Assembly (NCBI GenBank): GCA_000002445.1
Contig: CP000071.1
Coordinates: 1,344,001-1,408,000 of the forward strand
DNA: 64,000 bases
Source: Trypanosoma brucei
Lineage: Eukaryota
Reading direction: 5' to 3'
Shown here: positions 12,524 through 53,214 of the stretch, one piece after another
Numbering within the stretch: the stretch's first letter is position 1
How the letters are laid out: each line of letters begins with the position of its first letter
Position numbers and translations under genes: made by a program
The notes under the pieces: model-generated
Databases searched by the model: none
What the model saw: the letters and a program-made list of their open reading frames with translations, nothing else
What the model was told of the DNA's origin: nothing

Positions 12524-13390
12524 TCGCACAACAGGATGGTGTTAGCAAATGGATCGGCAAAGTACCCTTATGTATATGCGTTAACACGTGGCTGTATCTT
12601 CCCTTTACCTAAGCGTTTAAAGAACAAGTAACTTCTCCTTCAAGGTCACCCTCCGCGGTGGTAATACTCTCTCCTGCCCGCCGCAAAGTACAGGGTTGTC
12701 CGCGTGGAAAACCTCGATGGCTTTGAGAATCTTCTGCTTGAGCGGGTCCCAGAGCACAGGTGCTGAAGGCAAAAAGCAGCGGCAGTGGAAAGGAGCTTGG
12801 GAGTAAAGAAAGGAAAAGGAATAACAAGTAAGAAATCAAGTCCTCACGCGGAAACACAGTGGTGACATGACCAATACAGATAATTGTTCGAGGCCGGCAA
12901 CTCCTCGACACGACCCACCCGAGAAGTTGTCATAAGGCCCCACTTCACGAAAAGCAGTAGAGGGAGTACTCAAGTAATGCGTTCGGTCACGCGAACAGCT
13001 TCTAAACGTCCCCCGTCTCCTTTTTCTGAAAAAAAAAGAGAAGAGTAAGTAGAGATTATACATCTAAAAGAGTAAAATGGATGTGCCTCTCCCTGTTCTC
13101 TCACACTGCCCCCGCAGCACATTCATTCATCAACGAGTATATGTACATAAAGCAACTCTAACCGCCACGTAAATAACAAACGATTGGCACATTCACCCAC
13201 AAAGTAAACACGAGCGTGAGAGGCCTAGAAGCTGTGTAGGCAAAAAAACAAAACAGTGTGTAAAGTCGAACGAATGCATCAAGTAGCAGCGGAAGAGACA
13301 CTCGGGGAGAAGGGAAAAAAGAGTGACTAGGGCAATACCAAAAATATAATGCGCGTATTAATACAAAAGTTCCTGCGGTTAAAAATGTAA

Positions 13391-36122: not shown

Positions 36123-37499
36123 TTACACAGCCACATTGTAGATTGAGGCAGCCGTACCAAACACCACAGCGATCACTCCCGATATAAGGAGGAGGTACGT
36201 ACACACGTAATTTACCACACCCACCTGAGAAATGCCCCAGTTACCACAGTACATCCGGTACAATGCGGGAATGCAGAAACCAAGGACACCACCGCAGAAA
36301 CTTCCCAAAAGACCAAATACGGTATTCAGGTCGGGAATGAAGAGGCCAAGGAGCAGAGCGCATAGAGCCATGCAACCGCAAAACAGGCAGTTCTTCCATG
36401 TTTCAAGTGTGTTCAAATCCCACCCAATGATGTAATAGCAGCAATCACGGGCTGGTTGCATGCATAGTGAAAACCCAACACAGATCTTCAGCAACATGCC
36501 CGCAAACGCAATTGCCATCATCACGTCACCCTTCACGTCATAAATCTCAAAGACAGTTTCTACAGATTTGTTCCCAACATCCGTATAACCGAAGAAACCC
36601 GCAATGATGTACACCACACAACACATACTCATGGAATACGTTGTGTGGAGTGTCATGCGCCTTGCGCTCGGTTTGCGCATCTCCGAGTAAATGGAAAAAC
36701 AGTTCATATGGCACAGGTATGAAAACATGAAGATTGACAATCCCTCAATCGCCCTGTTCCCAGATTTAAACATCTCAACATCCTCGGGAAGTTTCCCATC
36801 CTTTAATCCATTTTTCGCGGAGTGCACAACAATGCAGATGACAAAATAAAAAACGAATAGCACAGCGATAGCGGAAGCGTAACGTAGTGAGTTGATTTCC
36901 TTGGGTAACGAGAGTGAAAACATTCCAACAAACCATATGATAGACGTGATCACGCGATTGCCCGTCTTTCCCTGAAAGAACTCCAATGTAGTGCACCCAG
37001 AAGCAACAGAGCCGACAAGGTAACCGGTAGCAATTACATAACTCACGCACGTCCCAAAGGTGAACAACCACGAGACCGATATAGTGAAGTAATCCCACCC
37101 GGGTCCAAAAAGGTTCCTCGAGAGATCCGTGTATGAGTTGTACCCTGTCATTTCTACTGCCTGCATCATCAGCCCAACGGAGTATATAGTCAACACAGTT
37201 ACAGTAATTAGAATGAGGATTGATGGGATCACACCACTCATCTGAAAAGCGATAGCGAGACTTATGACTCCAGCCCCCAATGTGGCACTCCCAAGGTTAA
37301 ACGTTGTCGAAAGGGCACCACCATGGGGAATGATTGCATTTATACATTGCATGAATTTGGAGTCTGTTGTCGGAGTGTCACCATTCTTGTGATGACTTTT
37401 CTCGTCTGCCGCTGACATCGCGCCGTATCCCTCACCCTCATCGGTAACAACCTCCGTGTGGGCCTTTCCAGAGCCTAATGGTTCTGTAGGGCTCAGCAT
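36123..37499 (-). CDS. Amino-acid transporter, AAAP/Aa_trans family (458 aa), array copy 1, variant A. The ORF track extends it to 532 aa via an in-frame upstream ORF.
   Basis: Polytopic membrane protein with an N-terminal acidic cytosolic tail then ~11 hydrophobic helices (ALSTTFNLGSATLGAGVISLAIAFQMSGVIPSILILITVTVLTIYSVGLMMQ...), typical of trypanosomatid AAT permeases. ATG at 37499-37497 matches the start of copies 2-5. From remembered synteny it is possibly part of the T. brucei chr8 AAT5-type locus. Confidence 0.85.
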   Translation of the reverse strand: MLSPTEPLGSGKAHTEVVTDEGEGYGAMSAADEKSHHKNGDTPTTDSKFMQCINAIIPHGGALSTTFNLGSATLGAGVISLAIAFQMSGVIPSILILITVTVLTIYSVGLMMQAVEMTGYNSYTDLSRNLFGPGWDYFTISVSWLFTFGTCVSYVIATGYLVGSVASGCTTLEFFQGKTGNRVITSIIWFVGMFSLSLPKEINSLRYASAIAVLFVFYFVICIVVHSAKNGLKDGKLPEDVEMFKSGNRAIEGLSIFMFSYLCHMNCFSIYSEMRKPSARRMTLHTTYSMSMCCVVYIIAGFFGYTDVGNKSVETVFEIYDVKGDVMMAIAFAGMLLKICVGFSLCMQPARDCCYYIIGWDLNTLETWKNCLFCGCMALCALLLGLFIPDLNTVFGLLGSFCGGVLGFCIPALYRMYCGNWGISQVGVVNYVCTYLLLISGVIAVVFGTAASIYNVAV

Positions 37500-37521
37500 A
37501 TTTAAGAGGTGGGTTTGCTGC

Positions 37522-37533
37522 GTGTGTACGTGT

Positions 37534-37564
<31 letters not shown>
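37522..37564. repeat. Imperfect (GT)n / (CA)n-on-coding-strand microsatellite in the 5' leader of AAT copy 1. It is 14 bp longer than the equivalent tract in units 2-5 (e.g. 40517-40547).
   Basis: Copy 1 reads gcgtgtgtacgtgtgtgcgtgtgcgtgtgtgtgtgtgtgtgtgtgctgc, whereas other units read gcgtgtgtacgtttgtgtgtgtgtgtgtgctgc. Confidence 0.9.
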
Positions 37565-37585
37565 CTGCTTGATAGCTTGATGACT

Positions 37586-37610
37586 GAAAAGGGAAAGAAA
37601 AGAAGCGAGC
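37586..37610 (-). promoter_or_regulatory. Candidate polypyrimidine tract / trans-splicing signal upstream of AAT copy 1. It repeats once per unit (e.g. 40569-40593). A stronger alternative tract lies at ~37895-37965.
   Basis: Plus strand gaaaagggaaagaaaagaagcgagc reads on the coding (minus) strand as gctcgcttcttttctttcccttttc, followed downstream by several AG dinucleotides ~60-90 nt before the ATG. Which tract is used cannot be decided from sequence alone. Confidence 0.3.
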
Positions 37611-39119
37611 TAATTCGTACAACGGAAGTAAAGACTGCCAAACACATGAATACACAAGTACCAAGAGTTCTTGCACACCCAGACAAGAATCTACTAAACT
37701 CACGGGCATAGCTACTTGCATATCGAAAAAAGCACCACGTTATTTGAAGGGGCATTCAACTCATGGCGACAAAGGAAGACACAAGAAGGTGGTTTCTACG
37801 TGCACCAGACAAGTGTCAAACATGACGCACAAATCGCAGCATCATCAGAGAATGAAACACAACGTGTGTCACACACTGCTTCTGCTTACCCCGACAGAAA
37901 ACAAAAGCGGATAACAAATACAACAAAAAAGGAAGGGAACTAAACAAAAATAAAGGAGCACATTGGAGCGACACGAACGCTGGAGTAACGTATTGTTGGC
38001 TTGGCGATTGATAAAACGCGTAACCAACCCTTCACTTAACCCTGTGGGAACATGTTGTACAAAGGTAGAACATCTTCCAGAGTACGTGTTAGGTTACACG
38101 TGACACCAACTCCATCCAGCATTCAACATTCATTCGTGTGGCAGACAGAAGTTGATACACACATGTTTTCTGTGAGGAATAGAAACATGAGTATATATAG
38201 ATAATGCTTTACGCCACGGCTTCGCAATGGAAAACAAAATAACAAATGAGAAAGCATCCTTCCTTGGCCCTCCCCTCTACCTGCGAACCCAAAAACAGGG
38301 AACTGCCTGATGGAGACATAGCGCAAAGTAAAAAATAAAAATCGTAACAAAAAGGGAGAAACACTCCAGTAGCGGCCCACGAAGATGTAGTGCAACACAA
38401 GGAAGCCACTTTGTGTCACACAATGCTGAGGAAAGAGATATACGCTAAAAGTTCTTTTTAAAAGTTCTAAAAAATAAAATATATAGATATATATATGCCT
38501 CCGCTAAACCAACAAAATAATAATCAAGAATATTTTCCCATTTCGTCTTATTTTTTTTTTTCTGTCTCATAGTTATGCATCACTCACAGCACCTGCCGCC
38601 ACCATCCCTACCGTAAATAAACACGAGGAATTAACCTCTCCGCCACAGGGATTTTGTTAAGAGGAAGGAGCCACTTTACGCAGGTCAGAGAAAACAAGGT
38701 ATGAATCCATAAATACATAACTCTGTATGATAGAGGTGGGCACGCCGTTGCAAAGTGGGCATTAGCTCCTCGTTAACACGGAAACAAACTTATTAAAAAA
38801 GAAAACGTTAACGGTGTAAGCAAATTTTCCCCGCTTACACAAACATATTCACCCAACACTGAACACAGTAAAAAGAAGAAAAGAAGAGGCACCTCAAATA
38901 AATATGCTTATATACCTATACGTAACACCTAACAGTTGCATTTTGTCTACTCTTACACCACACTGAAGGTCATGCAACTGCTTATCATGCATGACACAAA
39001 CACATGGAAAAAACAACACAGTAGAAAAAAATTTAAAAATTACCATCACACGACAGAGTTTGCCTGATTATTGCCGTCACTTGCTGCATGCTCCCACTCT
39101 AACAAAGGGCCAATGTTGA

Positions 39120-40496
39120 TTACACAGCCACATTGTAGATTGAGGCAGCCGTACCAAACACCACAGCGATCACTCCCGATATAAGGAGGAGGTACGTACA
39201 CACGTAATTTACCACACCCACCTGAGAAATGCCCCAGTTACCACAGTACATCCGGTACAATGCGGGAATGCAGAAACCAAGGACACCACCGCAGAAACTT
39301 CCCAAAAGACCAAATACGGTATTCAGGTCGGGAATGAAGAGGCCAAGGAGCAGAGCGCATAGAGCCATGCAACCGCAAAACAGGCAGTTCTTCCATGTTT
39401 CAAGTGTGTTCAAATCCCACCCAATGATGTAATAGCAGCAATCACGGGCTGGTTGCATGCATAGTGAAAACCCAACACAGATCTTCAGCAACATGCCCGC
39501 AAACGCAATTGCCATCATCACGTCACCCTTCACGTCATAAATCTCAAAGACAGTTTCTACGGATTTGTTCCCAACATCCGTATAACCGAAGAAACCCGCA
39601 ATGATGTACACCACACAACACATACTCATGGAATACGTTGTGTGGAGTGTCATGCGCCTTGCGCTCGGTTTGCGCATCTCCGAGTAAATGGAAAAACAGT
39701 TCATATGGCACAGGTATGAAAACATGAAGATTGACAATCCCTCAATCGCCCTGTTCCCAGATTTAAACATCTCAACATCCTCGGGAAGTTTCCCATCCTT
39801 TAATCCATTTTTCGCGGAGTGCACAACAATGCAGATGACAAAATAAAAAACGAATAGCACAGCGATAGCGGAAGCGTAACGTAGTGAGTTGATTTCCTTG
39901 GGTAACGAGAGTGAAAACATTCCAACAAACCATATGATAGACGTGATCACGCGATTGCCCGTCTTTCCCTGAAAGAACTCCAATGCAGAGGACCCAGATA
40001 GCACAGAGTCCACAAGGTAACCGGTAGCAATTACATAACTCACGCACGTCCCAAAGGTGAACAACCACGAGACCGATATAGTGAAGTAATCCCACCCGGG
40101 TCCAAAAAGGTTCCTCGAGAGATCCGCATATGAGTTGTACCCTGTCATTTCTACTGCCTGCATCATCAGCCCAACGGAGTATATAGTCAACACAGTTACA
40201 GTAATTAGAATGAGGATTGATGGAATCACACCACTCATCTGAAAAGCGATAGCGAGACTTATGACTCCAGCCCCCAATGTGGCACTCCCAAGGTTAAACG
40301 TTGTCGAAAGGGCACCACCATGGGGAATGATTGCATTTATACATTGCATGAATTTGGAGTCTGTTGTCAGAGTGTTACCATTCTTGTGATGACTTTTCTC
40401 GTCTGCCGCTGACATCGCGCCGTATCCCTCACCCTCATCGGTAACAACCTCCGTGTGGGCCTTTCCAGAGCCCAATGCTTCTGTAGGGCTCAGCAT
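39120..40496 (-). CDS. Amino-acid transporter, AAAP family (458 aa), array copy 2, variant B (A7, N41, L43, A124, DSVLSGSSA patch).
   Basis: ATG verified at 40496. Protein identical to copy 4. Confidence 0.9.
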   Translation of the reverse strand: MLSPTEALGSGKAHTEVVTDEGEGYGAMSAADEKSHHKNGNTLTTDSKFMQCINAIIPHGGALSTTFNLGSATLGAGVISLAIAFQMSGVIPSILILITVTVLTIYSVGLMMQAVEMTGYNSYADLSRNLFGPGWDYFTISVSWLFTFGTCVSYVIATGYLVDSVLSGSSALEFFQGKTGNRVITSIIWFVGMFSLSLPKEINSLRYASAIAVLFVFYFVICIVVHSAKNGLKDGKLPEDVEMFKSGNRAIEGLSIFMFSYLCHMNCFSIYSEMRKPSARRMTLHTTYSMSMCCVVYIIAGFFGYTDVGNKSVETVFEIYDVKGDVMMAIAFAGMLLKICVGFSLCMQPARDCCYYIIGWDLNTLETWKNCLFCGCMALCALLLGLFIPDLNTVFGLLGSFCGGVLGFCIPALYRMYCGNWGISQVGVVNYVCTYLLLISGVIAVVFGTAASIYNVAV

Positions 40497-42102
40497 ATTT
40501 AAGAGGTGGGTTTGCTGCGTGTGTACGTTTGTGTGTGTGTGTGTGTGCTGCTTGATAGCTTGATGACTGAAAAGGGAAAGAAAAGAAGCGAGCTAATTCG
40601 TACAACGGAAGTAAAGACTGCCAAACACATGAATACACAAGTACCAAGAGTTCTTGCACACCCAGACAAGAATCTACTAAACTCACGGGCATAGCTACTT
40701 GCATATCGAAAAAAGCACCACGTTATTTGAAGGGGCATTCAACTCATGGCGACAAAGGAAGACACAAGAAGGTGGTTTCTACGTGCACCAGACAAGTGTC
40801 AAACATGACGCACAAATCGCAGCATCATCAGAGAATGAAACACAACGTGTGTCACACACTGCTTCTGCTTACCCCGACAGAAAACAAAAGCGGATAACAA
40901 ATACAACAAAAAAGGAAGGGAACTAAACAAAAATAAAGGAGCACATTGGAGCGACACGAACGCTGGAGTAACGTATTGTTGGCTTGGCGATTGATAAAAC
41001 GCGTAACCAACCCTTCACTTAACCCTGTGGGAACATGTTGTACAAAGGTAGAACATCTTCCAGAGTACGTGTTAGGTTACACGTGACACCAACTCCATCC
41101 AGCAATCAACATTCATTCGTGTGGCAGAGAGAAGTTGATACACACATGTTTTCTGTGAGGAATAGAAACATGAGTATATATAGATAATGCTTTACGCCAC
41201 GGCTTCGCAATGGAAAACAAAATAACAAATGAGAAAGCATCCTTCCTTGGCCCTCCCCTCTACCTGCGAACCCAAAAACAGGGAACTGCCTGATGGAGAC
41301 ATAGCGCAAAGTAAAAAATAAAAATCGTAACAGAAAGGGAGAAACACTCCAGTAGCGGCCCACGAAGATGTAGTGCAACACAAGGAAGCCACTTTGTGTC
41401 ACACAATGCTGAGGAAAGAGATATACGCTAAAAGTTCTTTTTAAAAGTTCTAAAAAATAAAATATATAGATATATATATGCCTCCGCTAAACCAACAAAA
41501 TAATAATAAAGAATATTTTCCCATTTCGTCTTATTTTTTTTTTTCTGTCTCATAGTTATGCATCACTCACAGCACCTGCCGCCACCATCCCTACCGTAAA
41601 TAAACACGAGGAATTAACCTCTCCGCCACAGGGATTTTGTTAAGAGGAAGGAGCCACTTTACGCAGGTCAGAGAAAACAAGGTATGAATCCATAAATACA
41701 TAACTCTGTATGATAGAGGTGGGCACGCCGTTGCAAAGTGGGCATTAGCTCCTCGTTAACACGGAAACAAACTTATTAAAAAAGAAAACGTTAACGGTGT
41801 AAGCAAATTTTCCCCGCTTACACAAACATATTCACCCAACACTGAACACAGTAAAAAGAAGAAAAGAAGAGGCACCTCAAATAAATATGCTTATATACCT
41901 ATACGTAACACCTAACAGTTGCATTTTGTCTACTCTTACACCACACTAAAGGTCATGCAACTGCTTATCATGCATGACACAAACACATGGAAAAAACAAC
42001 ACAGTAGAAAAAAATTTAAAAATTACCATCACACGACAGAGTTTGCCTGATTATTGCCGTCACTTGCTGCATGCTCCCACTCTAACAAAGGGCCAATGTT
42101 GA

Positions 42103-43479
42103 TTACACAGCCACATTGTAGATTGAGGCAGCCGTACCAAACACCACAGCGATCACTCCCGATATAAGGAGGAGGTACGTACACACGTAATTTACCACAC
42201 CCACCTGAGAAATGCCCCAGTTACCACAGTACATCCGGTACAATGCGGGAATGCAGAAACCAAGGACACCACCGCAGAAACTTCCCAAAAGACCAAATAC
42301 GGTATTCAGGTCGGGAATGAAGAGGCCAAGGAGCAGAGCGCATAGAGCCATGCTACCGCAAAACAGGCAGTTCTTCCATGTTTCAAGTGTGTTCAAATCC
42401 CACCCAATGATGTAATAGCAGCAATCACGGGCTGGTTGCATGCATAGTGAAAACCCAACACAGATCTTCAGCAACATGCCCGCAAACGCAATTGCCATCA
42501 TCACGTCACCCTTCACGTCATAAATCTCAAAGACAGTTTCTACAGATTTGTTCCCAACATCCGTATAACCGAAGAAACCCGCAATGATGTACACCACACA
42601 ACACATACTCATGGAATACGTTGTGTGGAGTGTCATGCGCCTTGCGCTCGGTTTGCGCATCTCCGAGTAAATGGAAAAACAGTTCATATGGCACAGGTAT
42701 GAAAACATGAAGATTGACAATCCCTCAATCGCCCTGTTCCCAGATTTAAACATCTCAACATCCTCGGGAAGTTTCCCATCCTTTAATCCATTTTTCGCGG
42801 AGTGCACAACAATGCAGATGACAAAATAAAAAACGAATAGCACAGCGATAGCGGAAGCGTAACGTAGTGAGTTGATTTCCTTGGGTAACGAGAGTGAAAA
42901 CATTCCAACAAACCATATGATAGACGTGATCACGCGATTGCCCGTCTTTCCCTGAAAGAACTCCAATGCAGAGGACCCAGATAGCACAGAGTCCACAAGG
43001 TAACCGGTAGCAATTACATAACTCACGCACGTCCCAAAGGTGAACAACCACGAGACCGATATAGTGAAGTAATCCCACCCGGGTCCAAAAAGGTTCCTCG
43101 AGAGATCCGCATATGAGTTGTACCCTGTCATTTCTACTGCCTGCATCATCAGCCCAACGGAGTATATAGTCAACACAGTTACAGTAATTAGAATGAGGAT
43201 TGATGGGATCACACCACTCATCTGAAAAGCGATAGCGAGACTTATGACTCCAGCCCCCAATGTGGCACTCCCAAGGTTAAACGTTGTCGAAAGGGCACCA
43301 CCATGGGGAATGATTGCATTTATACATTGCATGAATTTGGAGTCTGTTGTCGGAGTGTCACCATTCTTGTGATGACTTTTCTCGTCTGCCGCTGACATCG
43401 CGCCGTATCCCTCACCCTCATCGGTAACAACCTCCGTGTGGGCCTTTCCAGAGCCTAATGGTTCTGTAGGGCTCAGCAT
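42103..43479 (-). CDS. Amino-acid transporter, AAAP family (458 aa), array copy 3. It is a chimera: variant-A N-terminus (P7, D41, P43) with variant-B middle (A124, DSVLSGSSA), plus a unique C408S-type change (CLFCGSMALC).
   Basis: Direct comparison of the five translated copies. Confidence 0.9.
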   Translation of the reverse strand: MLSPTEPLGSGKAHTEVVTDEGEGYGAMSAADEKSHHKNGDTPTTDSKFMQCINAIIPHGGALSTTFNLGSATLGAGVISLAIAFQMSGVIPSILILITVTVLTIYSVGLMMQAVEMTGYNSYADLSRNLFGPGWDYFTISVSWLFTFGTCVSYVIATGYLVDSVLSGSSALEFFQGKTGNRVITSIIWFVGMFSLSLPKEINSLRYASAIAVLFVFYFVICIVVHSAKNGLKDGKLPEDVEMFKSGNRAIEGLSIFMFSYLCHMNCFSIYSEMRKPSARRMTLHTTYSMSMCCVVYIIAGFFGYTDVGNKSVETVFEIYDVKGDVMMAIAFAGMLLKICVGFSLCMQPARDCCYYIIGWDLNTLETWKNCLFCGSMALCALLLGLFIPDLNTVFGLLGSFCGGVLGFCIPALYRMYCGNWGISQVGVVNYVCTYLLLISGVIAVVFGTAASIYNVAV

Positions 43480-45085
43480 ATTTAAGAGGTGGGTTTGCTG
43501 CGTGTGTACGTTTGTGTGTGTGTGTGTGTGCTGCTTGATAGCTTGATGACTGAAAAGGGAAAGAAAAGAAGCGAGCTAATTCGTACAACGGAAGTAAAGA
43601 CTGCCAAACACATGAATACACAAGTACCAAGAGTTCTTGCACACCCAGACAAGAATCTACTAAACTCACGGGCATAGCTACTTGCATATCGAAAAAAGCA
43701 CCACGTTATTTGAAGGGGCATTCAACTCATGGCGACAAAGGAAGACACAAGAAGGTGGTTTCTACGTGCACCAGACAAGTGTCAAACATGACGCACAAAT
43801 CGCAGCATCATCAGAGAATGAAACACAACGTGTGTCACACACTGCTTCTGCTTACCCCGACAGAAAACAAAAGCGGATAACAAATACAACAAAAAAGGAA
43901 GGGAACTAAACAAAAATAAAGGAGCACATTGGAGCGACACGAACGCTGGAGTAACGTATTGTTGGCTTGGCGATTGATAAAACGCGTAACCAACCCTTCA
44001 CTTAACCCTGTGGGAACATGTTGTACAAAGGTAGAACATCTTCCAGAGTACGTGTTAGGTTACACGTGACACCAACTCCATCCAGCATTCAACATTCATT
44101 CGTGTGGCAGACAGAAGTTGATACACACATGTTTTCTGTGAGGAATAGAAACATGAGTATATATAGATAATGCTTTACGCCACGGCTTCGCAATGGAAAA
44201 CAAAATAACAAATGAGAAAGCATCCTTCCTTGGCCCTCCCCTCTACCTGCGAACCCAAAAACAGGGAACTGCCTGATGGAGACATAGCGCAAAGTAAAAA
44301 ATAAAAATCGTAACAAAAAGGGAGAAACACTCCAGTAGCGGCCCACGAAGATGTAGTGCAACACAAGGAAGCCACTTTGTGTCACACAATGCTGAGGAAA
44401 GAGATATACGCTAAAAGTTCTTTTTAAAAGTTCTAAAAAATAAAATATATAGATATATATATGCCTCCGCTAAACCAACAAAATAATAATCAAGAATATT
44501 TTCCCATTTCGTCTTATTTTTTTTTTTCTGTCTCATAGTTATGCATCACTCACAGCACCTGCCGCCACCATCCCTACCGTAAATAAACACGAGGAATTAA
44601 CCTCTCCGCCACAGGGATTTTGTTAAGAGGAAGGAGCCACTTTACGCAGGTCAGAGAAAACAAGGTATGAATCCATAAATACATAACTCTGTATGATAGA
44701 GGTGGGCACGCCGTTGCAAAGTGGGCATTAGCTCCTCGTTAACACGGAAACAAACTTATTAAAAAAGAAAACGTTAACGGTGTAAGCAAATTTTCCCCGC
44801 TTACACAAACATATTCACCCAACACTGAACACAGTAAAAAGAAGAAAAGAAGAGGCACCTCAAATAAATATGCTTATATACCTATACGTAACACCTAACA
44901 GTTGCATTTTGTCTACTCTTACACCACACTGAAGGTCATGCAACTGCTTATCATGCATGACACAAACACATGGAAAAAACAACACAGTAGAAAAAAATTT
45001 AAAAATTACCATCACACGACAGAGTTTGCCTGATTATTGCCGTCACTTGCTGCATGCTCCCACTCTAACAAAGGGCCAATGTTGA

Positions 45086-46462
45086 TTACACAGCCACATT
45101 GTAGATTGAGGCAGCCGTACCAAACACCACAGCGATCACTCCCGATATAAGGAGGAGGTACGTACACACGTAATTTACCACACCCACCTGAGAAATGCCC
45201 CAGTTACCACAGTACATCCGGTACAATGCGGGAATGCAGAAACCAAGGACACCACCGCAGAAACTTCCCAAAAGACCAAATACGGTATTCAGGTCGGGAA
45301 TGAAGAGGCCAAGGAGCAGAGCGCATAGAGCCATGCAACCGCAAAACAGGCAGTTCTTCCATGTTTCAAGTGTGTTCAAATCCCACCCAATGATGTAATA
45401 GCAGCAATCACGGGCTGGTTGCATGCATAGTGAAAACCCAACACAGATCTTCAGCAACATGCCCGCAAACGCAATTGCCATCATCACGTCACCCTTCACG
45501 TCATAAATCTCAAAGACAGTTTCTACGGATTTGTTCCCAACATCCGTATAACCGAAGAAACCCGCAATGATGTACACCACACAACACATACTCATGGAAT
45601 ACGTTGTGTGGAGTGTCATGCGCCTTGCGCTCGGTTTGCGCATCTCCGAGTAAATGGAAAAACAGTTCATATGGCACAGGTATGAAAACATGAAGATTGA
45701 CAATCCCTCAATCGCCCTGTTCCCAGATTTAAACATCTCAACATCCTCGGGAAGTTTCCCATCCTTTAATCCATTTTTCGCGGAGTGCACAACAATGCAG
45801 ATGACAAAATAAAAAACGAATAGCACAGCGATAGCGGAAGCGTAACGTAGTGAGTTGATTTCCTTGGGTAACGAGAGTGAAAACATTCCAACAAACCATA
45901 TGATAGACGTGATCACGCGATTGCCCGTCTTTCCCTGAAAGAACTCCAATGCAGAGGACCCAGATAGCACAGAGTCCACAAGGTAACCGGTAGCAATTAC
46001 ATAACTCACGCACGTCCCAAAGGTGAACAACCACGAGACCGATATAGTGAAGTAATCCCACCCGGGTCCAAAAAGGTTCCTCGAGAGATCCGCATATGAG
46101 TTGTACCCTGTCATTTCTACTGCCTGCATCATCAGCCCAACGGAGTATATAGTCAACACAGTTACAGTAATTAGAATGAGGATTGATGGAATCACACCAC
46201 TCATCTGAAAAGCGATAGCGAGACTTATGACTCCAGCCCCCAATGTGGCACTCCCAAGGTTAAACGTTGTCGAAAGGGCACCACCATGGGGAATGATTGC
46301 ATTTATACATTGCATGAATTTGGAGTCTGTTGTCAGAGTGTTACCATTCTTGTGATGACTTTTCTCGTCTGCCGCTGACATCGCGCCGTATCCCTCACCC
46401 TCATCGGTAACAACCTCCGTGTGGGCCTTTCCAGAGCCCAATGCTTCTGTAGGGCTCAGCAT
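45086..46462 (-). CDS. Amino-acid transporter, AAAP family (458 aa), array copy 4, variant B.
   Basis: Identical protein to copy 2. Confidence 0.9.
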   Translation of the reverse strand: MLSPTEALGSGKAHTEVVTDEGEGYGAMSAADEKSHHKNGNTLTTDSKFMQCINAIIPHGGALSTTFNLGSATLGAGVISLAIAFQMSGVIPSILILITVTVLTIYSVGLMMQAVEMTGYNSYADLSRNLFGPGWDYFTISVSWLFTFGTCVSYVIATGYLVDSVLSGSSALEFFQGKTGNRVITSIIWFVGMFSLSLPKEINSLRYASAIAVLFVFYFVICIVVHSAKNGLKDGKLPEDVEMFKSGNRAIEGLSIFMFSYLCHMNCFSIYSEMRKPSARRMTLHTTYSMSMCCVVYIIAGFFGYTDVGNKSVETVFEIYDVKGDVMMAIAFAGMLLKICVGFSLCMQPARDCCYYIIGWDLNTLETWKNCLFCGCMALCALLLGLFIPDLNTVFGLLGSFCGGVLGFCIPALYRMYCGNWGISQVGVVNYVCTYLLLISGVIAVVFGTAASIYNVAV

Positions 46463-48067
46463 ATTTAAGAGGTGGGTTTGCTGCGTGTGTACGTTTGTGT
46501 GTGTGTGTGTGTGCTGCTTGATAGCTTGATGACTGAAAAGGGAAAGAAAAGAAGCGAGCTAATTCGTACAACGGAAGTAAAGACTGCCAAACACATGAAT
46601 ACACAAGTACCAAGAGTTCTTGCACACCCAGACAAGAATCTACTAAACTCACGGGCATAGCTACTTGCATATCGAAAAAAGCACCACGTTATTTGAAGGG
46701 GCATTCAACTCATGGCGACAAAGGAAGACACAAGAAGGTGGTTTCTACGTGCACCAGACAAGTGTCAAACATGACGCACAAATCGCAGCATCATCAGAGA
46801 ATGAAACACAACGTGTGTCACACACTGCTTCTGCTTACCCCGACAGAAAACAAAAGCGGATAACAAATACAACAAAAAAGGAAGGGAACTAAACAAAAAT
46901 AAAGGAGCACATTGGAGCGACACGAACGCTGGAGTAACGTATTGTTGGCTTGGCGATTGATAAAACGCGTAACCAACCCTTCACTTAACCCTGTGGGAAC
47001 ATGTTGTACAAAGGTAGAACATCTTCCAGAGTACGTGTTAGGTTACACGTGACACCAACTCCATCCAGCAATCAACATTCATTCGTGTGGCAGACAGAAG
47101 TTGATACACACATGTTTTCTGTGAGGAATAGAAACATGAGTATATATAGATAATGCTTTACGCCACGGCTTCGCAATGGAAAACAAAATAACAAATGAGA
47201 AAGCATCCTTCCTTGGCCCTCCCCTCTACCTGCGAACCCAAAAACAGGGAACTGCCTGATGGAGACATAGCGCAAAGTAAAAAATAAAAATCGTAGCAAA
47301 AAGGGAGAAACACTCCAGTAGCGGCCCACGAAGATGTAGTGCAACACAAGGAAGCCACTTTGTGTCACACAATGCTGAGGAAAGAGATATACGCTAAAAG
47401 TTCTTTTTAAAAGTTCTAAAAAATAAAATATATAGATATATATATGCCTCCGCTAAACCAACAAAATAATAATCAAGAATATTTTCCCATTTCGTCTTAT
47501 TTTTTTTTTCTGTCTCATAGTTATGCATCACTCACAGCACCTGCCGCCACCATCCCTACCGTAAATAAACACGAGGAATTAACCTCTCCGCCACAGGGAT
47601 TTTGTTAAGAGGAAGGAGCCACTTTACGCAGGTCAGAGAAAACAAGGTATGAATCCATAAATACATAACTCTGTATGATAGAGGTGGGCACGCCGTTGCA
47701 AAGTGGGCATTAGCTCCTCGTTAACACGGAAACAAACTTATTAAAAAAGAAAACGTTAACGGTGTAAGCAAATTTTCCCCGCTTACACAAACATATTCAC
47801 CCAACACTGAACACAGTAAAAAGAAGAAAAGAAGAGGCACCTCAAATAAATATGCTTATATACCTATACGTAACACCTAACAGTTGCATTTTGTCTACTC
47901 TTACACCACACTAAAGGTCATGCAACTGCTTATCATGCATGACACAAACACATGGAAAAAACAACACAGTAGAAAAAAATTTAAAAATTACCATCACACG
48001 ACAGAGTTTGCCTGATTATTGCCGTCACTTGCTGCATGCTCCCACTCTAACAAAGGGCCAATGTTGA

Positions 48068-49444
48068 TTACACAGCCACATTGTAGATTGAGGCAGCCGT
48101 ACCAAACACCACAGCGATCACTCCCGATATAAGGAGGAGGTACGTACACACGTAATTTACCACACCCACCTGAGAAATGCCCCAGTTACCACAGTACATC
48201 CGGTACAATGCGGGAATGCAGAAACCAAGGACACCACCGCAGAAACTTCCCAAAAGACCAAATACGGTATTCAGGTCGGGAATGAAGAGGCCAAGGAGCA
48301 GAGCGCATAGAGCCATGCAACCGCAAAACAGGCAGTTCTTCCATGTTTCAAGTGTGTTCAAATCCCACCCAATGATGTAATAGCAGCAATCACGGGCTGG
48401 TTGCATGCATAGTGAAAACCCAACACAGATCTTCAGCAACATGCCCGCAAACGCAATTGCCATCATCACGTCACCCTTCACGTCATAAATCTCAAAGACA
48501 GTTTCTACAGATTTGTTCCCAACATCCGTATAACCGAAGAAACCCGCAATGATGTACACCACACAACACATACTCATGGAATACGTTGTGTGGAGTGTCA
48601 TGCGCCTTGCGCTCGGTTTGCGCATCTCCGAGTAAATGGAAAAACAGTTCATATGGCACAGGTATGAAAACATGAAGATTGACAATCCCTCAATCGCCCT
48701 GTTCCCAGATTTAAACATCTCAACATCCTCGGGAAGTTTCCCATCCTTTAATCCATTTTTCGCGGAGTGCACAACAATGCAGATGACAAAATAAAAAACG
48801 AATAGCACAGCGATAGCGGAAGCGTAACGTAGTGAGTTGATTTCCTTGGGTAACGAGAGTGAAAACATTCCAACAAACCATATGATAGACGTGATCACGC
48901 GATTGCCCGTCTTTCCCTGAAAGAACTCCAATGTAGTGCACCCAGAAGCAACAGAGCCGACAAGGTAACCGGTAGCAATTACATAACTCACGCACGTCCC
49001 AAAGGTGAACAACCACGAGACCGATATAGTGAAGTAATCCCACCCGGGTCCAAAAAGGTTCCTCGAGAGATCCGTGTATGAGTTGTACCCTGTCATTTCT
49101 ACTGCCTGCATCATCAGCCCAACGGAGTATATAGTCAACACAGTTACAGTAATTAGAATGAGGATTGATGGGATCACACCACTCATCTGAAAAGCGATAG
49201 CGAGACTTATGACTCCAGCCCCCAATGTGGCACTCCCAAGGTTAAACGTTGTCGAAAGGGCACCACCATGGGGAATGATTGCATTTATACATTGCATGAA
49301 TTTGGAGTCTGTTGTCGGAGTGTCACCATTCTTGTGATGACTTTTCTCGTCTGCCGCTGACATCGCGCCGTATCCCTCACCCTCATCGGTAACAACCTCC
49401 GTGTGGGCCTTTCCAGAGCCTAATGGTTCTGTAGGGCTCAGCAT
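48068..49444 (-). CDS. Amino-acid transporter, AAAP family (458 aa), array copy 5, variant A (identical protein to copy 1).
   Basis: Direct comparison. The GSVASGCTT patch and T124 are shared with copy 1. Confidence 0.9.
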   Translation of the reverse strand: MLSPTEPLGSGKAHTEVVTDEGEGYGAMSAADEKSHHKNGDTPTTDSKFMQCINAIIPHGGALSTTFNLGSATLGAGVISLAIAFQMSGVIPSILILITVTVLTIYSVGLMMQAVEMTGYNSYTDLSRNLFGPGWDYFTISVSWLFTFGTCVSYVIATGYLVGSVASGCTTLEFFQGKTGNRVITSIIWFVGMFSLSLPKEINSLRYASAIAVLFVFYFVICIVVHSAKNGLKDGKLPEDVEMFKSGNRAIEGLSIFMFSYLCHMNCFSIYSEMRKPSARRMTLHTTYSMSMCCVVYIIAGFFGYTDVGNKSVETVFEIYDVKGDVMMAIAFAGMLLKICVGFSLCMQPARDCCYYIIGWDLNTLETWKNCLFCGCMALCALLLGLFIPDLNTVFGLLGSFCGGVLGFCIPALYRMYCGNWGISQVGVVNYVCTYLLLISGVIAVVFGTAASIYNVAV

Positions 49445-51049
49445 ATTTAAGAGGTGGGTTTGCTGCGTGTGTACGTTTGTGTGTGTGTGTGTGTGCTGCT
49501 TGATAGCTTGATGACTGAAAAGGGAAAGAAAAGAAGCGAGCTAATTCGTACAACGGAAGTAAAGACTGCCAAACACATGAATACACAAGTACCAAGAGTT
49601 CTTGCACACCCAGACAAGAATCTACTAAACTCACGGGCATAGCTACTTGCATATCGAAAAAAGCACCACGTTATTTGAAGGGGCATTCAACTCATGGCGA
49701 CAAAGGAAGACACAAGAAGGTGGTTTCTACGTGCACCAGACAAGTGTCAAACATGACGCACAAATCGCAGCATCATCAGAGAATGAAACACAACGTGTGT
49801 CACACACTGCTTCTGCTTACCCCGACAGAAAACAAAAGCGGATAACAAATACAACAAAAAAGGAAGGGAACTAAACAAAAATAAAGGAGCACATTGGAGC
49901 GACACGAACGCTGGAGTAACGTATTGTTGGCTTGGCGATTGATAAAACGCGTAACCAACCCTTCACTTAACCCTGTGGGAACATGTTGTACAAAGGTAGA
50001 ACATCTTCCAGAGTACGTGTTAGGTTACACGTGACACCAACTCCATCCAGCAATCAACATTCATTCGTGTGGCAGACAGAAGTTGATACACACATGTTTT
50101 CTGTGAGGAATAGAAACATGAGTATATATAGATAATGCTTTACGCCACGGCTTCGCAATGGAAAACAAAATAACAAATGAGAAAGCATCCTTCCTTGGCC
50201 CTCCCCTCTACCTGCGAACCCAAAAACAGGGAACTGCCTGATGGAGACATAGCGCAAAGTAAAAAATAAAAATCGTAGCAAAAAGGGAGAAACACTCCAG
50301 TAGCGGCCCACGAAGATGTAGTGCAACACAAGGAAGCCACTTTGTGTCACACAATGCTGAGGAAAGAGATATACGCTAAAAGTTCTTTTTAAAAGTTCTA
50401 AAAAATAAAATATATAGATATATATATGCCTCCGCTAAACCAACAAAATAATAATCAAGAATATTTTCCCATTTCGTCTTATTTTTTTTTTCTGTCTCAT
50501 AGTTATGCATCACTCACAGCACCTGCCGCCACCATCCCTACCGTAAATAAACACGAGGAATTAACCTCTCCGCCACAGGGATTTTGTTAAGAGGGAGGAG
50601 CCACTTTACGCAGGTCAGAGAAAACAAGGTATGAATCCATAAATACATAACTCTGTATGATAGAGGTGGGCACGCCGTTGCAAAGTGGGCATTAGCTCCT
50701 CGTTAACACGGAAACAAACTTATCAAAAAAGAAAACGTTAACGGTGTAAGCAAATTTTCCCCGCTTACACAAACATATTCACCCAACACTGAACACAGTA
50801 AAAAGAAGAAAAGAAGAGGCACCTCAAATAAATATGCTTATATACCTATACGTAACACCTAACAGTTGCATTTTGTCTACTCTTACACCACACTAAAGGT
50901 CATGCAACTGCTTATCATGCATGACACAAACACATGGAAAAAATAACACAGTAGAAAAAAATTTAAAAATTACCATCACACGACAGAGTTTGCCTGATTA
51001 TTGCCGTCACTTGCTGCATGCTCCCACTCTAACAAAGGGCCAATGTTGA

Positions 51050-51166
51050 TTACACAGCCACATTGTAGATTGAGGCAGCCGTACCAAACACCACAGCGAT
51101 CACTCCCGATATAAGGAGGAGGTACGTGCACACGTAATTTACCACACCCACCTGAGAAATGCCCCA
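51050..51166 (-). pseudogene. Truncated amino-acid transporter fragment: only the last ~38 codons plus the stop codon of a sixth array unit.
   Basis: 51044-51166 matches the 3' end of the AAT coding sequence (stop at 51050-51052) with one SNP (gtacgtGcacacg). Homology stops dead at 51166 and the sequence then switches to unrelated G/T-rich DNA. Confidence 0.85.
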
Positions 51167-51620
51167 TTTTTATATATACGTTGTGGTGTCCAGATGAATT
51201 GCTTTTCCTTCGATATATTTGTTGTTAGTACATTTTTAAATAGCTGTATTGTTGTTTCTGGTTTATTCTTTTTCTTCATTTTACTTTTTTTCTGTTCATT
51301 GTCTTTTTTTGTTTGTTGTTACGTGGATGTTTAATAGTCGATATGAGTTCGTATTCGTTAAATATATTTTTAGTGTTTCACTGCTGATTATTTTTATCTT
51401 TTTGTGTGTTGTTTTGTTTTCTGTGTATGGGTTTTTATTTACACATGCCGTTCATGGTGTTTTTTCCCGGTCCTTCTACCTATTTTTGGGACGAACACGA
51501 ATGTGTTAGGTGCTTTGAAGTGACGCCTCGGTTACTGATTTCCTCGTACATGCGTTGTAGAAGGGGTGTTGCTCGTTTTTCGTTTCGCTGGTTGTGAAGA
51601 AGTTGAGTTGGTGTAGTGAG
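51167..51620. other. Unique G/T-rich (A/C-poor on +) low-complexity segment immediately flanking the array breakpoint.
   Basis: Direct reading: long runs of t and g with few a/c (tttgttgttagtacatttttaaatagctgtattgttgtttctggtttattc...). Composition is the mirror of the A/C-rich flank at 35.5-36.1 kb on the other side of the array. Confidence 0.6.
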
Positions 51621-52416: not shown

Positions 52417-53214
52417 CTACCTTTGTCCTCCTTTTAAATACCATTCCAAGACTGAGCTAGCTGCTTTCGGAAGAGATCGACCCCACCGTACAGGCAACCC
52501 CATCAAGAAGCAAGAAAGGACTGCGGAATCTCTTATAGCAACAATAGTTCCATTTTCACAATGTACCAACTCACAAAAACCATCGGAAAACCGGAATTCT
52601 ATGAATGCTCCTTCTACGCGGAAGGAGGATAAAAAGCACAAACGTGACTGATCATTACAAGCTGATGTCTCATGGAAACTAACAGCATTTACCCCCATCA
52701 CTTCCGCAACTTCGCCAGCCCATGGAAACCTACGCTCTATGTCAGATCTCGACAACACGATCGATTTTTCAATGCAAGAATTCGAATCAATAAAGTAACT
52801 TGGAAGATCGTCACGAGTAGATATAAGAAGGTTGGCGCCATCGATGAAATGGCACCCAAGAATGTCTCGATGGATCTGGTAGCAAAGTGCAATTGCTCTA
52901 GAGCTCTCACTCTCACTCCAGTAGACAGTAGGCCTCATTACCTTGCTCACCAGTGCAGTGAAAGGAGTAAGCCCCATTTTACCGCCACAGCGCAGACACA
53001 CATCTTTTCCGCTCTTTGAGCAATGGAAAAAGGGACCCTCGGAGTACTCCATAAAACAAATATCACAAACGTAGCCATTTTGGTATTCGGGCTCATGATC
53101 TATTGGAAGCACTTCAAAATACCTAAAAGTGCACTTATTTTTGTCCTTCATCGTCCCTCCAATAGTCAAAAAAGAAGAAGTAATGACATAAAGTGTAAAT
53201 AATACGCACCTCAT
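52417..53214 (-). CDS. Hypothetical protein (265 aa) with a hydrophobic N-terminus (possible signal/anchor) and a Cys/His zinc-finger-like cluster (CDICFMEYSEGPFFHCSKSGKDVCLRCGG).
   Basis: ATG verified at 53214 (MRCVLFTLYVITSSFLTIGG). Alternative ATG at 53151 (MKDKNKC). Non-repetitive composition on the PTU strand. Confidence 0.5.
   Translation of the reverse strand: MRCVLFTLYVITSSFLTIGGTMKDKNKCTFRYFEVLPIDHEPEYQNGYVCDICFMEYSEGPFFHCSKSGKDVCLRCGGKMGLTPFTALVSKVMRPTVYWSESESSRAIALCYQIHRDILGCHFIDGANLLISTRDDLPSYFIDSNSCIEKSIVLSRSDIERRFPWAGEVAEVMGVNAVSFHETSACNDQSRLCFLSSFRVEGAFIEFRFSDGFCELVHCENGTIVAIRDSAVLSCFLMGLPVRWGRSLPKAASSVLEWYLKGGQR

What the first reader, a model, noticed from the sequence alone, without database searches (positions are those of the whole stretch)
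37497..37721. Upstream ORF overlapping the transporter start is fused in frame in copy 1 by a (GT)n length change
Every unit carries an ATG ~220 nt upstream of the transporter ATG (MQVAMPVSLVDSCLGVQELLVLVY..., 89 codons in units 2-5, out of frame and overlapping the main start). In unit 1 the 5'-leader (GT)n tract is 14 bp longer. This shifts the frame so the uORF runs straight into the transporter CDS, producing the 532-aa ORF in the track. Two readings are possible. Either the uATG lies upstream of the trans-splice site and is never in mature mRNA (then the 532-aa call is an annotation artefact). Or it is in the 5'UTR and acts as a copy-specific uORF or N-terminal extension, giving copy 1 different translational control.
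Basis: partly seen in the sequence, partly recalled or inferred. Interest (0 to 1): 0.5.

Follow-up and report, generated by a model that had tools for sequence, protein, structure and literature searches.

The report
Misannotated start codon, trypanosome arginine transporter
The 74 extra codons on the first copy of this Trypanosoma brucei arginine-transporter gene come from a variable CA/GT repeat that puts an upstream ATG in frame, but that ATG lies upstream of the mapped spliced-leader site and so is absent from the mature mRNA, which makes the long protein an annotation artefact that was already published in 2010.

Summary
The window is T. brucei TREU927 chromosome 8 (window coordinate = chromosome coordinate − 1,344,000). 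The five tandem genes are the TbAAT5 arginine-transporter array, Tb927.8.4700–4740.

All five leaders are identical over about 460 nt. The one exception is a compound (CA)n tract that is 14 nt longer in unit 1, plus one A/C substitution. This puts the ATG at 37721 in frame with the real start at 37499, giving 532 aa instead of 458 aa.

- Kolev et al. 2010 list Tb927.8.4700 among ORFs with a misannotated start codon.
- Its 5'-most spliced-leader site is window 37575, which is 146 nt downstream of the uATG.
- The upstream gene's poly(A) site is window 37701, so the uATG sits in the last ~20 nt of that gene's 3'UTR.
- The true 5'UTR (76 nt in unit 1, 62 nt in units 2–5) contains no ATG.

Across 15 copies in 6 assemblies the tract spans 41–65 nt and the upstream ATGs fall in all three frames. 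T. b. gambiense annotations fuse two different upstream frames (524, 530 and 538 aa).

No conserved uORF or N-terminal extension exists. The finding is already known and of low interest.

The parts
36123..37499 (-). True CDS of Tb927.8.4700 (TbAAT5 copy, unit 1), 458 aa, starting MLSPTEPLGSGK
   Evidence: ORF list. Pfam Aa_trans PF01490, E = 2.4e-51. The 458-aa translation is identical to XP_847305 of unit 5. Phosphosites S3, T5 and S10 are numbered from this start. AAT5 ORFs of 1377 nt are functional in yeast.
37500..37721 (-). The 222-nt (74-codon) spurious N-terminal extension of the 532-aa GenBank/GeneDB v4 model (XP_847301)
   Evidence: Listed as a misannotated start codon in Kolev 2010 Table S1.
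37719..37721 (-). Upstream ATG (MQVAMP frame). It lies in the terminal ~20 nt of the 3'UTR of the upstream gene Tb927.8.4710, not in the 5'UTR of Tb927.8.4700.
   Evidence: Sequence. The major poly(A) site of Tb927.8.4710 is 1381701 = window 37701, giving a 3'UTR of 1419 nt with dispersion 8.75 (Kolev Table S13).
37753..37755 (-). Second upstream ATG (MPLQITW frame). Out of frame in all five Tb927 copies, but fused in frame in one T. b. gambiense copy (538 aa) and open in two T. b. equiperdum copies.
37701..37701 (-). Major polyadenylation site of the upstream mRNA (Tb927.8.4710)
   Evidence: Kolev 2010 Table S13. It lies 126 nt upstream of the SL site, inside the published interquartile range of 123-178 nt.
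37586..37605 (-). Polypyrimidine tract: a 20-nt pure pyrimidine run, the longest in the 500 nt upstream of the main ATG
   Evidence: Identical in all five units. The immediately adjoining motif AGCTATCAAGCAG is present in all 15 copies of the other assemblies.
37565..37585 (-). Cluster of four splice-acceptor AGs (37585/84, 37577/76, 37569/68, 37566/65). Exon starts at 37583 and 37575 correspond to the mapped or annotated SL-addition sites.
   Evidence: The Kolev 5'-most SAS is 1381575 = window 37575. The Vasquez table gives gene coordinates for 4710 and 4740 that end 70 nt upstream of the ATG, which is the first AG of the equivalent cluster (window 40566, 49514).
37500..37575 (-). True 5'UTR of unit 1 (76 nt, excluding the 39-nt SL). 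It contains no ATG. The equivalents in units 2-5 are 62 nt (40497..40558, 43480..43541, 46463..46524, 49445..49506).
37522..37564 (.). Compound (CA)n/(GT)n microsatellite inside the 5'UTR. It carries the 14-nt length difference (alignment placement 37537..37550) and the A/C substitution at 37532.
   Evidence: TRF, alignment A1, decomposition, length polymorphism of 41-65 nt among 15 copies.
40435..40704 (-). 89-codon upstream ORF of unit 2. Equivalents are 43418..43687, 46401..46670 and 49383..49652. Its start is upstream of the SL site, so it is not part of the mature transporter mRNA.
   Evidence: SL site by identity of sequence with unit 1.

Best explanation
The 532-aa ORF of unit 1 (Tb927.8.4700) is an artefact of a longest-ORF gene model, produced by neutral length variation of a compound (CA)n microsatellite that lies inside the true 5'UTR.

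How the pre-mRNA is processed:
- It is trans-spliced at an AG cluster (exon start window 37575-37583) immediately after a 20-nt polypyrimidine tract.
- The upstream mRNA (Tb927.8.4710) is polyadenylated at about 37701, coupled to that splice site.
- The ATG at 37721 therefore ends up in the last ~20 nt of the upstream gene's 3'UTR and is absent from the transporter mRNA.
- The mature mRNA has a short 5'UTR with no ATG (76 nt in unit 1, 62 nt in units 2-5), and the first AUG is the MLSPTEP... start. All five copies make a 458-aa arginine transporter.

Why the fusion appears: the pyrimidine- and CA-rich leader has few stop codons, so two upstream frames happen to be open. Each 2-nt slippage step of the microsatellite rotates which frame, if any, reads through into the CDS.

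What is shown: the sequence anatomy, the published SL and poly(A) coordinates, and the polymorphism. What is inferred: that unit 1 itself uses the same acceptor as the other units (the cis signals are identical) and that this holds in all life-cycle stages.
For: 1. Identity of the locus. The proteins match T. b. brucei TREU927 XP_847301-305 exactly. The annotated ORF of Tb927.8.4700, 1381721..1380123, equals window 37721..36123, which fixes the offset at 1,344,000. The TbAAT5 arginine-transporter array is Tb927.8.4700-4740.

2. Published SL mapping. [quoted passage not shown] It lists Tb927.8.4700 with a transcript 5' end of 1381575. [quoted passage not shown]

3. Published poly(A) mapping. 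The major poly(A) site of Tb927.8.4710 is 1381701, with low dispersion of 8.75. The PAS-SAS distance of 126 nt lies within the published 123-178 nt interquartile range.

4. Sequence signals. The longest polypyrimidine run (20 nt) abuts the AG cluster at 37585-37565. The -3 position is not G. No ATG occurs in the resulting 5'UTR.

5. Independent coordinates. Gene coordinates for 4710 and 4740 in Vasquez 2014 extend exactly 70 nt 5' of the ATG, which is the first AG of the same cluster.

6. Comparison across copies. In 15 copies from 6 assemblies the tract-to-ATG distance is 41, 45, 47, 49, 51, 59 or 65 nt. uATG1 is in frame in 5 copies, uATG2 in 3, and neither in 7. The T. b. gambiense models of 524 and 530 aa use one upstream frame and the 538-aa model uses the other.

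7. Function and current numbering. The 1377-nt ORFs transport arginine in yeast, and an N-terminally myc-tagged AAT5-1 reaches the plasma membrane. Phosphosites of Tb927.8.4700 are numbered S3, T5 and S10, which is the short-ORF numbering.

8. No alternative processing reported. The AAT5 genes are absent from Kolev Table S3 (alternative 5'/3'UTR processing), a file that is held uncut.
Against: - The SL and poly(A) data come from one stage and one strain (procyclic T. b. rhodesiense YTat1.1), not from TREU927.
- Reads in this array map to several units, because the first ~30 nt after the acceptor are identical in all units. The site is therefore assigned to unit 1 by sequence identity, not by unit-specific reads.
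- A second pyrimidine-rich stretch (about 37950-37890) followed by four AGs (37886-37876) lies upstream of both uATGs and could serve as a minor or stage-specific acceptor. The full per-site tables (Kolev S4 and S12, Siegel 2010, Nilsson 2010) were truncated or not held, so minor sites could not be inspected.
- No ribosome-profiling coverage of the leader could be read.
Confidence: 0.9

Rival explanations
1. Copy-specific N-terminal extension. A fraction of unit-1 transcripts is trans-spliced at the distal acceptor (AGs at 37886-37876) and translated from the ATG at 37721, giving a 532-aa transporter with a 74-residue extension.
For: The ORF is open and in frame in unit 1. A distal pyrimidine-rich stretch with AGs exists. 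Alternative trans-splicing is widespread in T. brucei (background text).
Against: - The 5'-most SL site reported is 37575.
- The poly(A) site of the upstream mRNA at 37701 has low dispersion, so the distal site is not coupled to appreciable polyadenylation.
- The extension is not conserved. It is absent in 4 of 5 Tb927 copies, has a different length or a different frame in T. b. gambiense, and includes a translated CA repeat (HTHTHT...).
- With distal splicing, the ATGs at 37845, 37842, 37823, 37764 and 37755 would precede 37721.
- The extension has no Pfam domain; the Aa_trans match starts at residue 134 of the 532 aa.
Confidence: 0.03
2. Regulatory overlapping uORF in units 2-5. Stage- or nutrient-dependent use of the distal acceptor includes the 89-codon uORF, which represses the main ORF. 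In unit 1 the repeat change would remove this repression.
For: - The uATG and the leader are 100% conserved among the five Tb927 units.
- Three of the five substitutions seen between leader haplotypes are synonymous in the uORF1 frame.
- uORFs lower expression in T. brucei reporters (background text).
Against: - The same mapping data as for the previous rival apply.
- The identity of the leaders reflects concerted evolution of the whole 2983-bp unit (the spacers are ≥99% identical in every 100-nt bin over 1700 nt). Concerted evolution of AAT5 is reported. It is not specific constraint on the uORF.
- The stop position and length of the uORF change with every repeat-length variant.
- A split of 3 synonymous to 2 non-synonymous substitutions is not significant.
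- An ORF of this length arises in about 20% of shuffles of the spacer.
- AAT5 mRNA was not regulated by amino-acid starvation.
Confidence: 0.04
3. The repeat matters, but as a 5'UTR element. The (CA)n length inside the true 5'UTR (62 versus 76 nt; 41-65 nt from AGCAG to the ATG across strains) tunes translation or trans-splicing efficiency of individual copies. This is compatible with the best explanation.
For: The tract is in the mature 5'UTR and begins 11 nt downstream of the acceptor. Its length varies among copies and strains. [quoted passage not shown]
Against: No data were found. The length distribution looks like ordinary microsatellite slippage, with no conserved length. Expression differences between 4700 and 4710-40 are already attributable to their distinct 3'UTRs.
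Confidence: 0.1
4. The 14-nt difference is an assembly or sequencing error in a low-complexity tract of a tandem array, so even the frame fusion is not real in the organism.
For: Dinucleotide repeats in near-identical tandem units are prone to error. The T. b. equiperdum long-read assembly shows extra indels in this leader.
Against: - The insertion contains two CG interruptions and a linked substitution, which is not a simple slippage artefact.
- Comparable variation is seen independently in the T. b. gambiense assembly, and two Logan short-read assemblies agree with each other.
- The chromosome was presumably finished by Sanger sequencing (my own background knowledge, not checked here).
Confidence: 0.05

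Closest known systems
[quoted passage not shown] 2010, PLoS Pathog 6:e1001090, Table S1)
   Same: Tb927.8.4700 is itself an entry in that table. The SL-addition site maps inside the annotated ORF, so the annotated ATG is not in the mRNA.
   Different: Nothing differs; this is the same case. The present work adds the cause (microsatellite length variation in the 5'UTR) and shows the same artefact, in two different frames, in the T. b. gambiense DAL972 annotation.
TbAAT5 arginine transporters (Mathieu et al. 2017, PLoS One 12:e0168775)
   Same: It is the same five-gene array, Tb927.8.4700-4740, plus the pseudogene remnant 4750. The ORFs are 1377 nt, and only 4700 has a distinct 3'UTR.
   Different: That paper works with the 458-aa ORFs and does not discuss the 532-aa GenBank model.
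Regulatory uORFs overlapping the main start (for example the GCN4/ATF4 type; T. brucei uORFs catalogued by Vasquez et al. 2014)
   Same: An upstream ATG-initiated ORF overlaps the main ATG out of frame in units 2-5.
   Different: A uORF must lie in the mature 5'UTR. Here the uATG is upstream of the mapped SL site and belongs to the preceding mRNA's 3'UTR. Its frame and length are not conserved.
Contingency loci: phase variation by repeat slippage within coding or leader sequence (bacterial simple-sequence contingency genes)
   Same: A simple-sequence repeat whose length changes rotate the reading frame between an upstream ATG and a CDS.
   Different: The repeat lies downstream of the upstream ATG but upstream of the true start codon. 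Slippage therefore changes neither the protein nor whether it is made, and there is no evidence of on/off switching.

Membership tests
Misannotated start codon (SL site internal to the annotated ORF) | The experimentally mapped 5'-most SL-addition site lies downstream of the annotated ATG | tested here: met
   Kolev 2010 Table S1: annotated start 1381721 (window 37721), transcript 5' end 1381575 (window 37575). This is published data, not recomputed here.
Misannotated start codon (SL site internal to the annotated ORF) | An in-frame downstream ATG gives a full-length homologous protein | tested here: met
   The ATG at 37499 gives 458 aa, identical to unit 5. The Aa_trans domain is fully retained: residues 134-527 of the 532 aa, covering profile positions 3-409 of 410.
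Trypanosomatid trans-splice acceptor | An AG dinucleotide preceded by a polypyrimidine tract, with no G at -3 | tested here: met
   A 20-nt pyrimidine run at 37605..37586 is followed by AGs at 37585/84 and 37577/76, with C and A at -3. Criteria are taken from Kolev 2010.
Trypanosomatid trans-splice acceptor | Coupled poly(A) site of the upstream gene about 120-180 nt upstream | tested here: met
   The PAS at 37701 is 126 nt from the SAS at 37575. The published interquartile range is 123-178 nt.
Functional uORF | The uATG is located within the mature 5'UTR (downstream of the SL-addition site) | tested here: not met
   The uATG at 37721 is 146 nt upstream of the 5'-most mapped SL site. The real 5'UTR contains no ATG.
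Functional uORF | Conservation of the uORF (frame relation, length or peptide) among paralogues and strains | tested here: not met
   All three frame relations occur among the 15 copies, and the uORF end-point moves with the repeat length.
Functional uORF | Ribosome occupancy on the uORF | not testable with these tools
   Ribosome-profiling supplements had no uORF entry for these genes in the parts that are held.
Genuine N-terminal extension or alternative isoform | The extension is conserved in frame and in sequence among paralogues and orthologues | tested here: not met
   The extension is present in 1 of 5 Tb927 copies. The T. b. gambiense copies have extensions of 66, 72 and 80 codons, and the 80-codon one is in a different reading frame (MPLQITW...).
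Polymorphic dinucleotide microsatellite | A tandem 2-nt unit whose length varies among alleles or copies in steps of the unit | tested here: met
   TRF reports a period-2 array at 37522..37564. Tract-to-ATG lengths of 41, 45, 47, 49, 51, 59 and 65 nt all differ by multiples of 2. It is a compound, interrupted repeat.
AAAP / Aa_trans amino-acid transporter (PF01490) | A Pfam Aa_trans match above the gathering score | tested here: met
   175.1 bits against a cutoff of 25.6, E = 2.4e-51.

The most novel reading that the evidence does not exclude
In some life-cycle stage or stress not covered by the procyclic data, such as bloodstream, stumpy or metacyclic forms or arginine limitation, the distal acceptor (AGs at 37886-37876) might be used. 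The long 5'UTR would then carry the upstream ATGs. The hypervariable (CA)n tract would act as a slippage switch that decides, copy by copy, whether the array member is uORF-repressed or N-terminally extended. A weaker version is that the (CA)n length in the true 5'UTR tunes each copy's translation.
Probability: 0.05. Interest if true: 0.45.

Novelty: already known. Interest (0 to 1): 0.07.

Why it matters
It matters mainly for data hygiene.
- The 532-aa GenBank/UniProt entry (XP_847301 / Q57UY1) carries an N-terminus that is very probably not made. So do the 524-, 530- and 538-aa T. b. gambiense entries (C9ZVS1-3).
- Those N-termini include a translated CA repeat and, in one case, a different frame. 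They could mislead signal-peptide, topology or alignment analyses of an essential arginine transporter that is considered as a drug-delivery route.
- The case is a clean illustration of how a 5'UTR microsatellite plus a longest-ORF rule generates variable spurious extensions in tandem arrays.
- Biologically, nothing new follows unless the rare alternative-splicing scenario holds.

Tried and rejected
1. Per-gene splice-site tables in other studies. Nilsson 2010 supplements had no entry for these genes in the text held. No Siegel 2010 supplements are held. Kolev Tables S4 and S12 were truncated before chromosome 8. Minor or alternative SL sites could therefore not be listed.

2. Ribosome-profiling supplements. 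Jensen 2014 gave no hits. Vasquez 2014 gave only the translational-efficiency table, which did supply 5'UTR-inclusive coordinates. No supplements are held for the 2026 Kozak paper.

3. Direct SL-to-exon junctions in the fetched Logan contigs. No SL sequence was present; the contigs look genomic.

4. Evidence that the uORF is more than a chance ORF. Shuffles give P of about 0.2 for the whole spacer and about 0.02 locally. The split of synonymous to non-synonymous substitutions between leader haplotypes is 3:2. Neither supports coding constraint.

5. Pfam scan of the 89-aa uORF product: no family.

6. The large protein-database searches, structure prediction and RNA-family tools were not used, because the question was settled by transcript-end mapping and comparative DNA.
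Full report
**1. Observation**

On the minus strand the window carries five tandem genes of the Aa_trans family (PF01490, E = 2.4e-51). They lie at 36123..37721 (532 aa as the longest ORF) and at 39120..40496, 42103..43479, 45086..46462 and 48068..49444 (458 aa each).

An alignment of the ~500 nt upstream of the five start codons is identical at every upstream position except two:
- a 14-nt gap in units 2-5 inside a CA-rich tract (columns 411-424 = window 37537..37550);
- one A/C difference (window 37532).

- In unit 1 it is 222 nt (74 codons, in frame) from the main ATG, at 37721 versus 37499.
- In units 2-5 it is 208 nt upstream (+1 frame). There it opens an 89-codon ORF that overlaps the main start by 62 nt.

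Two refinements apply.
- The tract is a compound, interrupted repeat. Unit 1 reads (CA)10 CG (CA)2 CG (CA)3 CG..., and units 2-5 read (CA)9 AACG....
- A second upstream ORF in the third frame (MPLQITW..., ATG at 37755) is also present in every unit.

**2. What the locus is**

The four distinct proteins match exactly T. brucei brucei TREU927 XP_847301 to XP_847305 on a 2,481,190-bp contig. The 532-aa model is a public entry (XP_847301 / UniRef100_Q57UY1).

Published coordinates for Tb927.8.4700 (ORF 1381721..1380123, minus strand) equal window 37721..36123. Window coordinate is therefore Tb927_08_v4 coordinate minus 1,344,000. The neighbouring Tb927.8.4760 (1397214..1396417 = window 53214..52417) confirms the offset.

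The array is the TbAAT5 locus, Tb927.8.4700-4740, which encodes high-affinity arginine transporters that are essential in bloodstream forms (Mathieu 2017, PMC5207785). That paper reports:
- AAT5 ORFs of 1377 nt;
- arginine transport by these ORFs in yeast;
- plasma-membrane localisation of an N-terminally tagged AAT5-1;
- that only 4700 has a distinct 3'UTR.

**3. Where the mRNA starts**

Kolev et al. 2010 (PMC2936537) mapped SL-addition and poly(A) sites at single-nucleotide resolution.
[quoted passage not shown] It contains Tb927.8.4700 with a transcript 5' end of 1381575 and a 3' end of 1378114. The header states that these are the 5'-most SL site and the 3'-most poly(A) site.
- In window coordinates the 5'-most SL site is 37575. 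That is 146 nt downstream of the ATG at 37721 and 76 nt upstream of the ATG at 37499.
- Their Table S13 gives the major poly(A) site of the upstream gene Tb927.8.4710 as 1381701 (window 37701), with a 3'UTR of 1419 nt and dispersion 8.75.

The 'uATG' therefore lies in the last ~20 nt of the preceding mRNA's 3'UTR.

The sequence agrees with this:
- The longest pyrimidine run upstream of the gene (20 nt, 37605..37586) abuts a cluster of AGs at 37585/84, 37577/76, 37569/68 and 37566/65.
- The -3 positions are C and A.
- The resulting 5'UTR (76 nt in unit 1, 62 nt in units 2-5) contains no ATG.

The PAS-to-SAS distance of 126 nt falls within the genome-wide interquartile range of 123-178 nt reported by Kolev.

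There is an independent check. The gene coordinates listed for Tb927.8.4710 and Tb927.8.4740 in Vasquez 2014 (1383120-1384566 and 1392068-1393514) extend exactly 70 nt beyond the ATG. That is the first AG of the same cluster, at window 40566 and 49514. I infer that these coordinates reflect the 5'UTR annotation of the 927 v4.2 release used in that paper.

The AAT5 genes do not appear in Kolev's Table S3, which lists genes with alternative 5'/3'UTR processing and is held uncut.

Current usage also numbers Tb927.8.4700 from the short start. Its phosphosites are given as S3, T5 and S10, which fit M-L-S3-P-T5-E-P-L-G-S10 (PMC13524880 Table 1).

**4. Comparative evidence**

I fetched the homologous arrays from four NCBI assemblies and two Logan assemblies:
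- T. b. gambiense DAL972 (L001, 3 copies);
- T. b. equiperdum (L002, 4 copies);
- T. equiperdum OVI (L003, 1 copy);
- two Logan short-read assemblies (L004, L005).

The acceptor-proximal motif AGCTATCAAGCAG is present in all 15 copies. The distance from that AGCAG to the main ATG is 41, 45, 47, 49, 51, 59 or 65 nt, always differing by multiples of 2.

The frame relation rotates accordingly:
- the MQVAMP ATG is in frame in 5 copies;
- the MPLQITW ATG is in frame in 3 copies;
- neither is in frame in 7 copies.

The public T. b. gambiense models show the artefact plainly.
- The 524-aa and 530-aa models are fused to the MQVAMP frame, with different numbers of His-Thr repeats.
- The 538-aa model is fused to the other frame, MPLQITW.
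- Two T. b. equiperdum copies also have an open 80-codon in-frame extension. The one with a gene call (L002 10001..11377) was annotated as 458 aa.

A sequence that is sometimes absent, sometimes of different length and sometimes in a different frame cannot be a conserved N-terminal domain. It also cannot be a conserved uORF with a defined relation to the main start.

**5. Chance and constraint**

- An ATG-initiated ORF of at least 89 codons appears in about 20% of dinucleotide-preserving shuffles of the 1668-nt spacer, and in about 2% of shuffles of the local 326 nt. The leader has few stop codons.
- The perfect identity of the leaders within Tb927 reflects homogenisation of the whole 2983-bp unit. 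The spacers upstream of units 4 and 5 are 99-100% identical in every 100-nt bin over 1700 nt. Concerted evolution of AAT5 has been reported (Jackson 2007).
- Between the two leader haplotypes seen across strains there are five substitutions inside uORF1, three synonymous and two non-synonymous. That is uninformative.

**6. Mechanism**

Polycistronic pre-mRNA is processed at each spacer in two coupled steps: trans-splicing at the proximal polypyrimidine/AG cluster, and polyadenylation of the upstream transcript ~126 nt 5' of it. All five mRNAs then start 62-84 nt before the MLSPTEP... AUG, which is the first AUG in the mRNA.

The compound (CA)n tract sits inside this 5'UTR, 11 nt after the Kolev acceptor. 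It slips in 2-nt steps with no effect on the protein.

Two upstream frames happen to be open, so a longest-ORF gene caller extends the model whenever the repeat length brings one of them into frame. Unit 1 of TREU927 is one such instance.

Steps shown: the sequence anatomy, the published SL and poly(A) coordinates, and the polymorphism. Steps inferred:
- that unit 1 uses the same acceptor as units 2-5 (the cis signals are identical, but reads map to several units);
- that the procyclic YTat1.1 data apply to TREU927 and to other stages.

**7. Rivals**

- A distal pyrimidine-rich stretch (about 37950-37890) followed by AGs at 37886-37876 could in principle give a long 5'UTR containing both uATGs. 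No mapped site upstream of 37575 is reported. The tight poly(A) site at 37701 argues that the distal signal is not used appreciably. In such a transcript five other ATGs would precede 37721. I give the N-terminal-extension reading about 3% and the regulatory-uORF reading about 4%.
- An effect of repeat length on translation or splicing efficiency of the true 5'UTR is compatible with the main explanation but has no support (about 10%).
- An assembly error in the tract is unlikely given its interrupted structure and the independent variation in other assemblies (about 5%).

**8. Novelty**

This is already known. Tb927.8.4700 is explicitly listed as having a misannotated start codon (Kolev 2010), and later work uses the 458-aa form.

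What this analysis adds is small:
- the cause, a 5'UTR microsatellite;
- the placement of the uATG in the upstream gene's 3'UTR;
- the demonstration that the T. b. gambiense entries carry the same artefact in two frames.

Interest is low.

**9. Limits**

- I could not read raw SL-seq or ribosome-profiling coverage.
- I could not read complete per-site tables, so minor stage-specific acceptors are not excluded.
- Several supplementary tables were truncated or not held.

Noticed in passing
L001:7042-8634, 10001-11617, 13012-14586 (T. b. gambiense DAL972, FN554971.1): All three assembled AAT5 copies are annotated with spurious N-terminal extensions (530, 538 and 524 aa; CBH13511, CBH13510, CBH13509). 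The 538-aa model is fused to a different upstream reading frame (MPLQITW...) from the other two. It is the same artefact as in Tb927.8.4700.
   Followed up: yes
window 52417-53214 (-), Tb927.8.4760: The neighbouring 265-aa 'hypothetical protein, conserved' is also in Kolev 2010 Table S1 as having a misannotated start. The annotated ATG is 1397214 (window 53214) and the 5'-most SL site is 1397156 (window 53156).
   Followed up: partly
window ~51051-51168 (-): Homology to the repeat unit continues upstream of unit 5 through the whole 1606-nt spacer and into the last ~118 nt of a transporter CDS (...VGVVNYVCTYLLLISGVIAVVFGTAASIYNVAV*), then stops abruptly at about 51165-51170. This is the truncated sixth copy, pseudogene Tb927.8.4750, described by Mathieu 2017.
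   Followed up: partly
window 37876-37950 (-) and equivalents in each spacer: A second pyrimidine-rich stretch (longest pure run 15 nt) is followed by four closely spaced AGs (37886-37876), about 300 nt upstream of the used acceptor. It looks like a splice signal, yet it lies inside the mapped 3'UTR of the upstream gene. Whether it is a minor or stage-specific acceptor is not known.
   Followed up: partly
window 36123-49444 (-), the five CDSs: The proteins of units 1 and 5 (the two ends of the array) are identical, units 2 and 4 are identical, and unit 3 is unique. This is a mosaic pattern, not a gradient along the array, and it is consistent with gene conversion or concerted evolution.
   Followed up: no
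window 38999-39030, 41982-42013, 44965-44996, 47947-47978, 50929-50960: A short imperfect 17-nt tandem duplication (AACACAGTAGAAAAAAC, 1.9 copies) sits about 90-120 nt downstream of each stop codon, in the shared 3'UTR of units 2-5 and of the pseudogene remnant. It is absent from the distinct 3'UTR of unit 1.
   Followed up: no
L002:9660-9680 and other copies in L002 (T. b. equiperdum GCA_003543875.1): The leaders in this assembly carry extra small indels relative to all other strains (for example ttcattGATgatgatg versus ttcattCTCTgatgatg). These may be long-read assembly errors, so its repeat lengths should be treated with caution.
   Followed up: no
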